A DNA stretch of 19,629 nt from a virus (taxonomy: Duplodnaviria > Heunggongvirae > Uroviricota > Caudoviricetes), in IMG/VR virus record IMGVR_UViG_2551306674_000013; one strand, given 5' to 3'. Made by a program: the position numbers. Of this stretch, positions 1 through 3,000 are shown in pieces (the first letter of the stretch is position 1; every line of letters begins with the position of its first letter).

Positions 1-3000
1 AAGTTTTCTGTAATCATCCTCGTTTGGTAACTGCCACTGGCTGACACTGAACCAGTGCGATGTCATGTTTTTCTTTCCTGTTTTATTAATTTTTCCCAGC
101 AGAAGACAAGAAAAAAGGTTCCGGTGTTATCGGAACCTTTCAGCAGTAAGCATACAATTATAGACGTTATAACCATAACATATTTTTTTGTGCGCACACA
201 ACCCTTTCAGGTAGTACAACTTCAGGATCCATATCCAACCTTACTCCCTGCAGAGTCAGAGCTCCTTCCAGAAATGCTTCAGACGCCTTCAGGGATGTCC
301 GTACACTAAGATGACTACGGTCTATCGCCTCAGCAATTGCACGCGTTGAGAGGCCGCCTATAAAACGTAACCCCAGGATCAGCAAATCATCGTACGGGCA
401 AACCATACTCATATGCGCGATGCAGGTATCAATCACCGCTCCGTCCTCGTCAGAGCAACCGGGTTTGCCACTGTCGGTTACGTCCCGGGAAGTAACCGAC
501 ATTGAGGGCCAGTCAACCATTGAACAGTATTCCTCGCTCGCCGCCCATCGCCCCCACCGCTCCAGAACAAGTTGCATATCTCTACGCATAACGCTGGCCT
601 CTACGTTTTGCTACTTACCGTTCATCTTTCATTTTGAGGTTAGAAAGATGTTTAAGCCGCTGGCAATACGCTTTCCAGTAAGCCTCAGAGTGCATCGGGT
701 GCTCGATGTCGCTATACAGCCATACACAGTCGTCTCGCTGAGTTACCGGCGGTGGCGCTAACACATCTCGAGTGGCCTGCGTTAGTGCTCTTTTGAAGAA
801 AAAAGCCTCCCCTAAGGGCTGGTAGTCTCTGTTGAATGCTTCCCAAGCCCCCTCAGCTGTTTTGCGGATACCGTAAGGCATACATTGGCGGAATATCTTT
901 GACATCGTCGTATCCTCATTTAGTTATTTGCTAATTTTTTCAAGTTAATTTCCGGGTGGCAGTTAGGTGGCACTCAAATAGCTATCTGCCACCTCCTGAA
1001 ACGCACACCACGTAAGGTGCCGGGCTATTTGGGTGGCGGGTGGCAGATAGTTTTAGTTCTATATACATAAGAGATCGCATAATACATAAAATATAAGTTC
1101 TCGCGTATATAGTTTTAAATTCTATTGCCACCTGCCACCTTTTCACCGCTTCCAATTGATTTGATTGATCTTTACCTGGTGGCAGTTAGTCGTTTATCTG
1201 CCACCTTACTGCCACCTTTTTACAATCCAGATTGCAAAATTTCGCAATTTTTATATATTTCACGCAATTCTTCGTTGCTGAAATCGGTATTTTTTACAAG
1301 TAACCACATGCGAACAGTCATGCCGTCCACTTTTAGTTTCACTGCTTCACGTTTTGTTTTTTCTCGCAATAGCTTTGTTATGTGCTTCTGGTTAATTTCT
1401 ACATCCATTCCTGCTTCTGCCAGTATTGCGTTAACAATTTGTTGATAAGTCATTGCTGGCACAGGCGGATTATCCAGGATTTCAATAAGAGCAGCCTCCA
1501 CATCGCTCTTATTGCTTTCAATCATCAGAAGGCGTTCTTTCGTCTCGGGGGCGCGCTGCCAGTTAAAGCGAGACAGGTCAACGCCCATCAGATACCAGTA
1601 CACCTGGGCGATAAAGTCGCTGTCGCTTAGCGCACCGTACAGGCTGGCGTAATGCTCTTCAGTTGCGGCGAAGTCAGGGCCACCAAGCACAGCGATACGT
1701 CTGTCTTCCTCTGGCAGCGCCAGCGCATCAAAGTGGTTGGTGTAGAACAGAAAGCCAGTGTATATATCCATCGTTTTTTTGCTGCCATATTTGCGGTTCA
1801 CTTCAAACCGTGGTTCTGTCAGTACATCGCGGATCTTATCGTTCACCTCATACCGCTTATCGTTTTCGCGCACCTCGTCAATGGTGCATAGAAGCGTATT
1901 GTACAGATAGTCATGGAACTGGTTATCGCACAGGATCTTCATGCGAGTACGAGCACAGTTCCACGGACCAAGTGCGCGCTCCATTAACTGGCTGACCCAT
2001 CCTCTGCCCGTACCATGTGCGGTAGCCACATGCAGAATAGAAATCGGGCATCGACGCTCCGGACGCTGAACCATCCATCCCAGACGGGCGATGAAAAACT
2101 CGCGCTGCCAGGCATCAGGTACCAGATACGCCATATGATTAAGGAACGTGGACACCTTACTTGTATCCGCTGTACGTGGATGCTCAGGCATATAAAATTC
2201 GTTTATCTCAAACCGCCCGTCGAAACGCTCGATAATACGTCCCGCACCGGGCTTATAGCCTGTCGTCTCAGCAATCTTCTTATGCCGATGCTCTATCCAC
2301 CGTTTGGTTGCGGGAATTGGTTGCCCTTTCCCTTCTGGCGGGAACTGGTAAGGCGCCATCAGGTTTTTGAACGACTTCATATCCATCATGCACTGATATG
2401 GCGGTCGGCTAAGATCACATACCTGGTCACCCTCGATGACGTAGATAAAGCGTTCCAGAAAATGAGCTGTCATATCTGTATTAATATCGGTAAATTCAGG
2501 CTTATCGCCATCTTCAGCCACTGTCAAATCTTCGAAGTCTGCCACGCGGTAGCCGTATGCATCCAGCCAGTCGGCATCAGTAAGCCCCGCATCGGTGTTG
2601 TGCATGCTTTTAAAATGTCCCTGTTCAAATCCCCCCGTCCCTTTTGGGAAATACTTAATGGATGTTTCGCTGCAACCGTTGCTGTATTCTGACTCATCCC
2701 GAAACGGTTTCAGATTGCGGGAACCATCAGAGCTGACTGACAGAGTCCACCCGTTCGCGTCAAGCCAGTCGGCGACATCATCTGTCGCGGAAGGATCAAC
2801 ACAGGAAAGGTCACGCTGACGTCCCGCACCTGCGGTATAGCTGTCTTTCACGGGTAAGTTATCCGCTAGACGCTGCCACAGGCTTTCGAGCTGTTCAGAT
2901 GTAATTTTCAGAGGTTCGCCGGGCAAACCGCAGTCCCACTGAATACGTTCGCCTGCCGGATGGGTACCACAAGCCACAAACTGCTGGCCCTTAGCGAGCA

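What the first reader, a model, noticed from the sequence alone, without database searches (positions are those of the whole stretch)
906..1219. Iteron-type origin: ~10 GGTGGCAG/CTGCCACC repeats flanking an AT-rich core directly downstream of the primase gene
Seen: the 8-mer occurs about 10 times in both orientations within about 260 bp, split into two clusters around an AT-rich segment (about 1047..1125); pairs are tandem (GGTGGCGGGTGGCAG; TGCCACCTGCCACC). Established: iterons flanking a DNA-unwinding element are the standard architecture of initiator-dependent origins (for example P4 ori/crr, lambda ori). Inference: this is the origin bound by the C-terminal region of the adjacent primase/initiator; short, irregularly spaced and bidirectional, so not a CRISPR array.
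Basis: partly seen in the sequence, partly recalled or inferred. Interest (0 to 1): 0.55.

Follow-up and report, generated by a model that had tools for sequence, protein, structure and literature searches.

The report
Prophage replication origin with swappable iterons
The 260-bp gap after a prophage's primase-helicase gene is very probably its replication origin: ten copies of an 8-base word, mirror-symmetric around an easily melted AT-rich core, that change together with the DNA-binding tail of the enzyme in related phages. This is a known origin design found in a phage group where it had not been described.

Summary
GGTGGCAG occurs 7 times exactly, plus 3 one-mismatch copies. All ten lie in 955-1216, beginning 4 nt after the primase-helicase stop codon. 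They form a perfect dyad (spacings 11-20-46-7-86-7-46-20-11, centre 1085.5) around a 78-bp, 77% AT core that holds the least stable duplex in the window.

About 35 relatives from Escherichia to Xenorhabdus keep the same ten-site layout. They use six different words (GGT[G/A/T][G/A/T]C[A/G]G), one word per locus at all ten sites. The word tracks the last ~55 residues of the primase-helicase. That region is a predicted winged helix, and the informative residues sit in its beta-hairpin wing. Cro, CI, Q and the downstream gene do not track the word. Near-identical phages differ only by a ~450-bp cassette holding the array and the wing.

The closest known system is the SaPI/PICI Pri-Rep + ori replicon, which has an SF3 helicase with a C-terminal winged helix and iterons on both sides of an AT-rich region just 3' of rep. 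Here the design sits in a complete temperate phage with its own PolA (the 'Eru10'-type module, also found in Stx2 phages). I rate it a new member of a known kind.

One caveat: the helicase Walker A lysine is invariantly arginine.

The parts
955..1216 (.). Whole origin array: ten 8-bp iterons in two mirror-image arms of five, around an AT-rich core. The dyad centre is at 1085.5.
   Evidence: The same ten-site layout is found in all 16 IMG/VR relatives mapped, and complete or nearly so (8-10 recognisable sites) in the genome loci from Serratia, Izhakiella, Erwinia and Xenorhabdus.
955..962 (+). Iteron 10 (numbered from the primase stop), GGTGGCAG, exact
966..973 (+). Iteron 9, GGTGGCAC (1 mismatch). 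This position is also deviant in several relatives.
986..993 (-). Iteron 8, GGTGGCAG read on the - strand, exact
1032..1039 (+). Iteron 7, GGTGGCGG (1 mismatch). It forms a tandem with iteron 6 at a 7-nt period.
1039..1046 (+). Iteron 6, GGTGGCAG, exact; abuts the AT core
1047..1124 (.). AT-rich core (78 nt, 77% A+T), the presumed DNA-unwinding element. It contains the conserved blocks 1051-1069 (TTTTAGTTCTATATACATA) and 1099-1112 (TCTCGCGTATATAG) and a TA run of variable length.
   Evidence: GC 0.23-0.27. (the least stable 40-mer of the window starts at 1057; no DnaA or IHF consensus). (conserved columns).
1125..1132 (-). Iteron 5, GGTGGCAA on the - strand (1 mismatch); abuts the AT core
1132..1139 (-). 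Iteron 4, GGTGGCAG on the - strand, exact
1178..1185 (+). Iteron 3, GGTGGCAG, exact
1198..1205 (-). Iteron 2, GGTGGCAG on the - strand, exact
1209..1216 (-). Iteron 1, GGTGGCAG on the - strand, exact; begins 4 nt after the primase stop codon
1220..3481 (-). Initiator gene, 753 aa. It has an AEP Prim-Pol domain (about aa 10-215), a Cys/His zinc-ribbon region (about aa 245-300), a disordered variable linker (aa 301-330), a D5/NrS-1-like SF3 helicase (about aa 456-640, DUF5906) and a C-terminal winged helix (about aa 655-753).
   Evidence: PF09250, PF19263. (NrS-1 6k9c, E 1.7e-7). (AF2 model, pLDDT 83.9). (Foldseek hits: NrS-1, poxvirus D5/E5, ASFV PrimPol, SaPI5 PriRep 7ola, PriRep1 7pds). (phrog_1156, DNA primase).
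1223..1519 (-). Coding region of the C-terminal winged-helix domain (aa 655-753). Elements are H660-670, strand 676-678, H679-690, H698-709 (putative recognition helix), strands 714-718 and 721-727 (the wing), and H736-751.
1301..1348 (-). Codons of the wing (aa 712-727, 'AVKLKVDGMTVRMWLL'), which hold the residues that co-vary with the iteron word
   Evidence: highest mutual information at aa 714, 715, 721, 722, 723, 725
950..1399 (.). Specificity cassette. This is the only stretch that differs (54-86% identity per 50 nt) between this window and a relative of another iteron class; both flanks (600-949 and 1400-3700) are about 100% identical. It holds the iteron array plus the last ~60 codons of the initiator.

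Best explanation
Window 955-1216 is the replication origin of a temperate E. coli phage. Its adjacent gene (1220-3481, - strand) encodes a fused primase (AEP Prim-Pol), SF3 helicase (D5/NrS-1-like) and C-terminal winged helix. This protein is the origin-specific initiator.

Proposed mechanism:
1. After induction, the pR-type operon (cro, then primase-helicase) is expressed, and transcription runs through the origin towards Q.
2. The winged-helix domains of the initiator bind the ten 8-bp iterons. The conserved recognition helix probably reads the invariant GGT..C.G positions. The variable beta-hairpin wing probably reads positions 4, 5 and 7.
3. The two arms of five sites are exact mirror images. 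Two initiator oligomers (probably hexamers) would therefore assemble in opposite orientation on either side of the 78-bp AT-rich core.
4. The core melts and the helicase rings load onto single strands. The N-terminal Prim-Pol makes primers, and the phage's own PolA, Enc34-type SSB and nucleases take over.

Shown here: the repeats, their non-random clustering and symmetry, the low-stability core, the conservation of the layout across genera, the concerted change of all ten sites, the association with the wing sequence, and the winged-helix and SF3 folds (predicted). Inferred: binding, melting, double-oligomer loading and bidirectional replication.
For: 1. Seven exact and three near-exact copies lie in 262 bp, against 0.56 expected in 19.6 kb.
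2. The array has exact dyad symmetry, and the weakest duplex of the window lies at its centre.
3. The same ten sites, in the same order, orientation and spacing (+/- 4 nt), occur in every full-length relative mapped, down to ~59% protein identity and in five genera. A 23%-identical relative has a similar array.
4. Six words are used. Each locus uses a single word at all ten sites.
5. Of 20 deviant sites in 14 loci, only one pair is compensated in its dyad partner. The sites therefore serve one trans-acting reader rather than base-pairing.
6. Primases that are ~100% identical over aa 1-690 diverge only in the last ~55 aa when the word differs. The swapped block is 950-1399.
7. At matched backbone identity, wing identity is 0.92-0.96 for same-word pairs against 0.55 for different-word pairs. 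The most informative columns are aa 712-716 and 721-725, the two wing strands.
8. The C-terminus is predicted as a winged helix with pLDDT about 84-90.
9. The helicase part resembles NrS-1, poxvirus D5 and SaPI PriRep.
10. Other candidate binders do not track the word. The 96-aa downstream protein, Cro, hyp189 and hyp56 are 100% identical and CI is 99.6% identical in a phage of another class. The same Q allele occurs with two classes.
11. A relative's complete 42.7-kb record has only this one cluster of its word.
12. The experimentally characterised SaPI/PICI origins have the same design.
Against: No experiment supports binding or replication.

The wing and the array are only 4-180 nt apart. 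Part of their association could therefore be co-inheritance of one recombination block rather than functional coupling. The concerted identity of all ten sites argues for a reader but does not by itself name it.

The Walker A lysine of the helicase is arginine (HGTGRGW) in all 52 family members seen. Helicase or ATPase activity cannot be taken for granted.

Two relatives lack the array: L032, which has a C-terminal extension, and L095, a degraded endosymbiont copy.

No DnaA or IHF sites are present, so any host contribution is unknown.
Confidence: 0.85

Rival explanations
1. The array is bound by the primase C-terminus but acts as an operator or roadblock rather than an origin. It would provide autoregulation, or gate read-through from the early operon into the downstream gene and Q. 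The true origin would lie elsewhere.
For: The array lies inside the early rightward transcription unit, between the initiator gene and Q, with no terminator on the transcribed strand. Nothing tested here separates binding for regulation from binding for initiation.
Against: A mirror-symmetric pair of site clusters around the least stable duplex of the window is what origin melting needs; a roadblock does not need it. The AT core carries conserved blocks. The same design in SaPIs and E. coli PICIs was shown experimentally to be the origin. No second cluster exists in a relative's complete 42.7-kb record. A regulatory side-effect could coexist with origin function.
Confidence: 0.06
2. The ten sites are read by some other protein, from the host or from another phage gene. 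The primase C-terminus would differ between classes only because it is physically linked to the array and travels with it in recombination.
For: The wing codons and the array are adjacent, and the mosaic block includes both. Linkage alone would therefore produce the association.
Against: The other DNA-binding candidates nearby are identical across classes: the 96-aa protein, Cro, hyp189 and hyp56 at 100% and CI at 99.6%, and Q. A host factor could not follow six different words within one species. The divergent protein segment is precisely the wing of a DNA-binding fold, not random C-terminal drift. The recognition helix and scaffold stay conserved, as do the GGT..C.G positions.
Confidence: 0.05
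3. The inverted repeats form a conserved RNA or single-stranded-DNA secondary structure, for example a regulatory element in the read-through transcript. The concerted changes would then be compensatory base-pair changes.
For: The arms are complementary (39 nt at 79%, 35 nt at 71%), and the region is transcribed.
Against: A structure needs only partner arms to match. Here all five helices carry the same word in every locus, and all switch to the same new word. Of 20 deviant sites, 18 are not compensated in the partner. The spacers are not conserved as pairs. No Rfam family matches.
Confidence: 0.02
4. The array is a packaging (pac/terS) site or a partition centromere.
For: Arrays of short repeats occur in pac sites and centromeres (general knowledge).
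Against: The terminase genes lie about 2-3 kb away beyond Q and the lysis genes. No par genes are present, and the element integrates through an integrase. The swapped cassette contains the primase C-terminus, not a terminase or ParB.
Confidence: 0.02

Closest known systems
SaPI / PICI replicon (Pri-Rep or fused PriRep plus ori), e.g. SaPI5 PriRep5, SaPIbov1, EcCICFT073
   Same: The origin lies immediately 3' of the initiator gene. It has two sets of short iterons flanking a central AT-rich region, with at least two iterons on each side pointing in opposite directions. There are 6-12 iterons in total. The initiator is an SF3 helicase, sometimes fused to a primase, with a C-terminal winged helix that reads the iterons. 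Initiator alleles pair with cognate iterons (PMC9371898; PMC6092414). The full-length model here hits 7ola (E 4e-9) and 7pds by Foldseek.
   Different: The host element is a complete temperate myovirus-type phage with cI/cro, Q, lysis and structural genes and its own PolA, not a satellite. There is no detectable sequence similarity to the SaPI proteins. The iterons are 8-mers in an exact 5+5 dyad. The Walker A motif has Arg instead of Lys. [quoted passage not shown]
Phage P4 alpha protein with ori and crr
   Same: One polypeptide combines primase, SF3-type helicase and a C-terminal origin-binding domain that reads short repeated words (general knowledge; P4 alpha and its cognate site are mentioned in PMC6092414).
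   Different: The P4 primase is Toprim/DnaG-type, whereas here it is AEP Prim-Pol. P4 needs two separated clusters (ori and crr), whereas here there is a single cluster. The words differ. The P4 origin-binding domain was not recovered among the structural hits.
'Eru10' replication region of non-lambdoid Stx phages (Fagerlund et al. 2022, PMC8951638)
   Same: The gene order is the same: a PF09250 primase-polymerase protein and then Q between cI and the late region. One relative here (L003) carries stx2b just beyond Q.
   Different: That paper classifies the gene content only. Neither Eru paper contains the words iteron or origin of replication. The origin and its specificity classes are added here.
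SV40 large T antigen and papillomavirus E1 core origins
   Same: SF3 helicase initiators recognise short words arranged as inverted clusters next to AT-rich or easily melted DNA, and load as two oppositely oriented hexamers (general knowledge).
   Different: In those proteins the origin-binding domain lies N-terminal to the helicase and has a different fold. There is no primase fusion, and they are eukaryotic viruses. This is a functional analogy only.
Lambda ori (O/P) and iteron plasmids (RepA, pi, TrfA type)
   Same: An initiator binds repeated sites next to an AT-rich unwinding element.
   Different: Lambda ori lies inside the O gene, with four ~19-bp sites on one side of the AT tract, and needs P to recruit DnaB. 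Plasmid iterons are 17-22-bp direct repeats with DnaA boxes. Here the sites are 8-bp words in a dyad, lie outside the gene, and have no DnaA box and no O/P homologues.

Membership tests
SaPI/PICI-type replicon (Pri-Rep + ori) | The origin lies immediately 3' of the initiator gene | tested here: met
   The first iteron starts 4 nt after the stop codon, both here and in the relatives mapped (3-5 nt).
SaPI/PICI-type replicon (Pri-Rep + ori) | Two sets of short iterons flank a central AT-rich region, with at least two on each side pointing in opposite directions | tested here: met
   There are five sites per side. The inner tandem pairs face each other across a 78-nt, 77% AT core.
SaPI/PICI-type replicon (Pri-Rep + ori) | The initiator is an SF3 helicase with a C-terminal winged-helix domain | tested here: met
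SaPI/PICI-type replicon (Pri-Rep + ori) | Each initiator allele is matched to its own iteron sequence | tested here: met
   Six iteron words are each tied to a wing sequence across 26 unique C-terminus/word combinations. This is a sequence association only; binding was not tested.
SaPI/PICI-type replicon (Pri-Rep + ori) | A rep-ori fragment supports autonomous replication, and Rep binds and melts ori in vitro | not testable with these tools
   Needs cloning, EMSA and KMnO4 footprinting.
PICI (the mobile element class itself) | A phage satellite that lacks a full set of structural and lysis genes and depends on a helper phage | tested here: not met
   Relatives are complete phages with terminase, head, tail, baseplate, holin and endolysin genes. 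The window carries cI, cro, Q, PolA, SSB and integrase. It works like a PICI replicon but is not a PICI.
P4 alpha / ori-crr | Toprim (DnaG-type) primase domain | tested here: not met
   Pfam finds the AEP Prim-Pol family PF09250 and no Toprim domain.
P4 alpha / ori-crr | Two separated iteron clusters (ori and crr) | tested here: not met
   All exact copies in the window lie in one cluster. A relative's complete 42.7-kb record has one cluster plus scattered single copies.
Lambda-type ori (O/P) | The origin lies inside the initiator gene, and O and P homologues are present | tested here: not met
   The array is intergenic. No O/P-type domains occur among the window's proteins.
Iteron plasmids (RepA/pi/TrfA type) | 17-22-bp direct repeats with DnaA boxes beside an AT-rich region | tested here: not met
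   The sites are 8-bp words in a dyad. No DnaA box is found within one mismatch in 880-1260.
Eru10 replication region of Stx phages (PMC8951638) | A PF09250 primase-polymerase protein and then Q between cI and the late/stx region | tested here: met
   The order is cI 3827-4501, cro, PF09250 protein 1220-3481, Q 167-589. Relative L003 has stx2b after Q.

The most novel reading that the evidence does not exclude
The array may also be a timing gate as well as the origin. It sits in the only transcript path from the early promoter to the late-gene activator Q. A ten-site initiator-DNA complex could block read-through until the origin fires, coupling late gene (and, in Stx2 relatives, toxin) expression to the start of replication. 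The six orthogonal word/wing cassettes would then be maintained as 'replication immunity' groups that prevent cross-talk with co-resident prophages or with satellites that copy the iterons.
Probability: 0.1. Interest if true: 0.7.

Novelty: new member of a known kind. Interest (0 to 1): 0.42.

Why it matters
1. It locates the origin, and names the probable origin-recognition domain, for a replication module that is widespread in enterobacterial prophages. These include Stx2-converting phages, where replication drives toxin output. The gene was until now annotated only as 'DUF5906 / hypothetical'.

2. The 'PICI-type' origin design is not confined to satellites, contrary to a statement in the PICI literature. 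This bears on where satellite replicons came from.

3. The family offers a natural allelic series: six 8-mer words paired with short wing sequences on otherwise near-identical proteins. That is a ready-made system for working out a wing-based DNA recognition code and for building orthogonal replicons.

4. VapE-type chimeras sharing the same primase N-terminus carry analogous arrays with other words. The rule 'look just 3' of the primase-helicase gene' may therefore locate origins in many prophages.

Tried and rejected
- **Rfam scan of 500-1600.** Only two sub-threshold chance hits.
- **Terminator and promoter scan.** No terminator on the transcribed (-) strand. The promoter-like hits in the AT core are uninformative.
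- **DnaA-box and IHF consensus searches in 880-1260.** None found.
- **Homologue search with the C-terminal 153 aa alone.** It returned only gene fragments and was replaced by the full-length search.
- **Profile and Pfam searches of the C-terminal domain.** No sequence-level family. NCBIfam gave no hit.
- **Exact 15-mer scan (GGTGGCRGGTGGCAG) of viral contigs.** Clusters in L108, L133 and L161 lie outside this family and were not pursued. It did yield the distant relative L159.
- **Second (crr-like) cluster.** Sought and not found.
- **Rejected rivals.** A CRISPR array, a MITE or repeat element (one place per genome), a pac site and a centromere. ORFs 982-1155(-) and 1125-1445(+), which overlap the array, are treated as spurious because relatives have non-triplet indels in the core.
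Full report
**1. Observation**

The sequence in 906-1219 is the whole intergenic gap between a 96-aa ORF (615-905, - strand) and a 753-aa ORF (1220-3481, - strand). GGTGGCAG occurs 7 times exactly in the 19.6-kb window, always inside 955-1216. Dinucleotide-preserving shuffles expect 0.56 copies, and none of 200 shuffles reaches 7. Three one-mismatch copies (966, 1032, 1125) bring the total to ten. Orientations are + + - + + | core | - - + - -.

Centre-to-centre spacings are 11, 20, 46, 7, 86, 7, 46, 20, 11. 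Each of the five site pairs is centred exactly on 1085.5, so the array is a perfect dyad. The segment 1047-1124 is 77% A+T and contains the least stable 40-mer of the whole window. The symmetry goes beyond what it reported.

**2. Context**

The window is the early region of a lambdoid-style temperate phage of E. coli. Its genes are:

- integrase (17758-19002, - strand);
- a leftward operon with an SNF2 helicase, Rha, VRR-NUC, a TIR-domain protein, family-A DNA polymerase (10983-13046), AntA, an Enc34-type SSB, a DUF2800/PD-(D/E)XK nuclease and an HNH endonuclease;
- an S24 CI repressor (3827-4501, + strand);
- on the - strand, Cro (3485-3685), the 753-aa protein, the repeat region, the 96-aa gene and antiterminator Q (167-589).

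The 753-aa protein has Prim-Pol (PF09250) and DUF5906 (PF19263) domains. Its helicase part aligns to the phage NrS-1 primase-helicase (6k9c, E 1.7e-7).

Close relatives occur in 84 of 5,426 complete E. coli genomes and in four deposited phages (vB_EcoM-606R2 and others). There the gene is annotated 'hypothetical' and structural and lysis genes follow Q. One relative carries stx2b just after Q. The module corresponds to the 'Eru10' replication region of Stx phages. The papers defining Eru types do not mention an origin or iterons.

**3. Comparative anatomy**

The 3.1-kb region is ~95% identical in many E. coli prophages, but the intergenic part is only 70-77% identical. In seven annotated relatives the same ten positions are occupied by GGTGGCAG, GGTGACGG or GGTAACAG, depending on the locus.

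Twenty-five IMG/VR loci (67-100% protein identity) and nine usable genome loci (Serratia, Izhakiella, Erwinia, Xenorhabdus, Arsenophonus) were analysed. The site map was made for 16 of the IMG/VR loci. Measured from the stop codon it is 4+, 15+, 35-, 81+, 88+, core, 174-, 181-, 227+, 247-, 258-, and it is reproduced within a few nucleotides in all 16. In the genome loci, 8-10 sites fall at the same positions, except that the Arsenophonus array (L089) is shifted and incomplete.

Six words occur: GGTGGCAG, GGTGACGG, GGTGACAG, GGTAACAG, GGTGTCAG and GGTTGCAG. In the alignment, the positions GGT..C.G are invariant at every site, and positions 4, 5 and 7 change together at all ten sites. A table of the ten words per locus shows a single word per locus with at most one mismatch. 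A metagenomic relative with only 23% identity has a GGTGGCAG array and an AT core starting about 4 nt after its stop codon.

**4. Who reads the sites**

Primases of the three E. coli classes are ~100% identical over aa 1-690, apart from a linker at 301-330. They diverge in the last ~55 residues.

At the DNA level, the window and a GGTGACGG-class relative are ~100% identical at 600-949 and 1400-3700. They are 54-86% identical only at 950-1399. That stretch is the array plus the last ~60 codons of the primase.

Each word goes with a characteristic sequence after the conserved 'TKR' motif:

| Iteron word | Wing sequences |
|---|---|
| GGTGGCAG | ..EAVKLKVDGMTVRMW; ETAKVKIGGDTLRFW; ASAIKFNGKKERPW (Xenorhabdus) |
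| GGTGACGG | EPVRVKIDGFVYRIW |
| GGTAACAG | QPTDLVKIDGMGYRFW and variants |
| GGTGTCAG | EPVRVKIDG(C/F)TNRFW; EPLRVKVDGSTQRFW |
| GGTGACAG | EPVRVKVDGIAQRFW |
| GGTTGCAG | AGAIKFEGKTERPW |

At matched backbone identity, wing identity is 0.96 against 0.55 (backbone >= 0.9) and 0.92 against 0.55 (backbone 0.75-0.9) for same-word against different-word pairs. Mutual information with the word peaks at aa 714-715 and 721-725.

Other candidate readers fail this test. The 96-aa protein, Cro, hyp189 and hyp56 are 100% identical, and CI is 99.6% identical, in phage 606R2, which uses another word. One Q allele occurs with two words. The remaining weakness is that the wing and the array are adjacent, so linkage contributes to the association.

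**5. The protein's C-terminus**

AlphaFold2 with a 35-sequence alignment gives mean pLDDT 83.9 for the full protein and 84.0 for aa 640-753. The C-terminal elements are H660-670, strand 676-678, H679-690, H698-709, strands 714-718 and 721-727, and H736-751. This is a winged helix followed by a terminal helix.

The full model matches NrS-1 (E 1e-17), poxvirus D5/E5, ASFV PrimPol, SaPI5 PriRep (7ola, E 4e-9) and PriRep1 (7pds). The class-informative residues lie on the two wing strands. The putative recognition helix (QKHITRILKERTKR) is nearly invariant outside Xenorhabdus. This suggests, as an inference, that the helix reads the invariant bases and the wing reads the variable ones.

**6. Rival explanations**

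- **RNA or ssDNA structure.** Only partner arms would need to match. Instead all five pairs share one word and switch together, and 18 of 20 deviant sites are uncompensated in the partner. No Rfam family matches.
- **Pure operator or roadblock.** This does not explain the dyad around the weakest duplex or the conserved core blocks.
- **pac site or centromere.** Excluded by gene context and by the content of the swapped cassette.
- **P4-like bipartite origin.** Excluded because there is one cluster only.

**7. Mechanism (inferred)**

CI cleavage derepresses the rightward operon. The primase-helicase accumulates and binds the ten iterons through its winged helices. Two oligomers assemble as mirror images on the two arms, with their inner tandem pairs (7-nt period) abutting the core. 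The core melts and the SF3 rings load. The Prim-Pol domain primes, and the phage PolA and SSB elongate.

No DnaA or IHF consensus is present, which is consistent with a self-contained initiator. The caveat is the Walker A motif. It reads HGTGRGW, with Arg in place of the canonical Lys, in all 52 family members seen; NrS-1 has GTGKG. Walker B, sensor 1 and the EDRR motif are intact. Whether the ring is an active motor must be tested.

**8. Comparison with known systems**

The description of SaPI origins fits point by point. Those origins have 6-12 short iterons immediately downstream of rep, an AT-rich centre, and at least two iterons per side in opposite orientation. They are read by the winged helix in the C-terminal domain of a self-loading SF3 helicase that is sometimes fused to a primase (PMC9371898). 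E. coli PICIs have the same organisation, and their rep-ori fragment replicates autonomously (PMC6092414).

[quoted passage not shown] Here it occurs in a complete temperate phage, so the element is not a PICI even though its replicon works like one. The defining features of P4, lambda and plasmid iteron origins were tested and not met (see the membership table). SV40 and E1 origins are functional analogies only.

**9. Verdict**

I rate it a new member of a known kind. Its value lies in three things: annotating the origin of a widespread prophage module (including Stx2 phages), a clean natural series of six orthogonal iteron/wing cassettes, and showing that the 'PICI-type' origin also exists in true phages. 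I put confidence at about 0.85 that this is the origin read by the primase C-terminus.

Exceptions and loose ends:

- Two relatives lack the array: L032, which has a C-terminal extension, and L095, a degraded endosymbiont copy.
- The Walker A arginine is unexplained.
- VapE-type chimeras sharing the primase N-terminus carry analogous arrays with other words.

Noticed in passing
window 1997-2017 (codons of aa 489-495 of the primase-helicase, - strand): The helicase Walker A motif reads HGTGRGW, with Arg where the canonical P-loop (and NrS-1, GTGKG) has Lys. R493 is invariant in all 35 aligned homologues and in all 52 DUF5906-type proteins retrieved. Walker B, sensor 1 and EDRR are intact. The consequence for ATPase or helicase activity is unknown.
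   Followed up: partly
L033 3721-3990; L036 3007-3276; L037 3688-3963; L055 3679-3993: Chimeric proteins have the same Prim-Pol N-terminus (aa 1-330, 61-99% identity) fused to a VapE-type helicase. They also have iteron arrays flanking an AT-rich core right after their stop codon, with other words: GGTTGAGTA about 10 times, CTGTACCA, TGGAACCAC and CTAGACCACC.
   Followed up: partly
window 6722-7240 (+): A NUMOD4/HNH endonuclease gene sits between the 300-aa gene and the DUF2800 nuclease gene. In phage vB_EcoM-606R2 those two genes abut with no HNH gene between them, which suggests a mobile homing-endonuclease insertion.
   Followed up: partly
window 13111-13872 (+): A TIR-domain protein (PF10137, the CAP12/Pycsar effector TIR) is encoded in the early leftward operon right after the phage DNA polymerase. 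It is conserved at 98.8% in phage 606R2. Its role (defence, anti-defence or exclusion) is unknown.
   Followed up: no
L003 689-1924: A relative with the same replication module (iteron class GGTGACGG) carries stx2b A and B subunit genes and a tRNA-Arg directly downstream of Q, so this origin type serves Shiga-toxin-converting phages.
   Followed up: no
window 2492-2581 (codons of aa 301-330, - strand): A ~30-residue linker between the zinc-ribbon region and the helicase part is the only other variable block of the protein (77-80% identity against 100% elsewhere). It is predicted disordered (pLDDT below 50 at 316-327). It coincides with the junction used in the VapE chimeras.
   Followed up: no
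L032 2871-3290; L095 3675-4075: Two relatives lack the iteron array downstream of the gene. L032 has a different, extended C-terminal tail (…MQEILERLARLARKLREKDED) followed by GC-rich coding-like DNA. L095, from an Arsenophonus endosymbiont, has a truncated C-terminus.
   Followed up: partly
window 1061-1066 and the homologous core in L002, L007 and L010: A TA dinucleotide run inside the AT core varies in length among close relatives, so the distance between the inner iterons ranges from 85 to 89 nt. Exact phasing across the core is therefore not required.
   Followed up: no
window 966-973, 1032-1039, 1125-1132 and the same site positions in relatives: The deviant (one-mismatch) iterons recur at the same site positions (sites 3, 7 and 9 counted from the stop codon) in different specificity classes. 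This hints at deliberately weaker sites.
   Followed up: no
window 906-948 (- strand, upstream of the 96-aa gene): A conserved block, AAATTAACTTGAAAAAATTAGCAAATAACTAAATGGAG, lies between the last iteron and the start codon of the downstream gene. It is kept even where the downstream gene is a different one. It may be a promoter or ribosome-binding region, but the consensus promoter scan did not pick it up.
   Followed up: no
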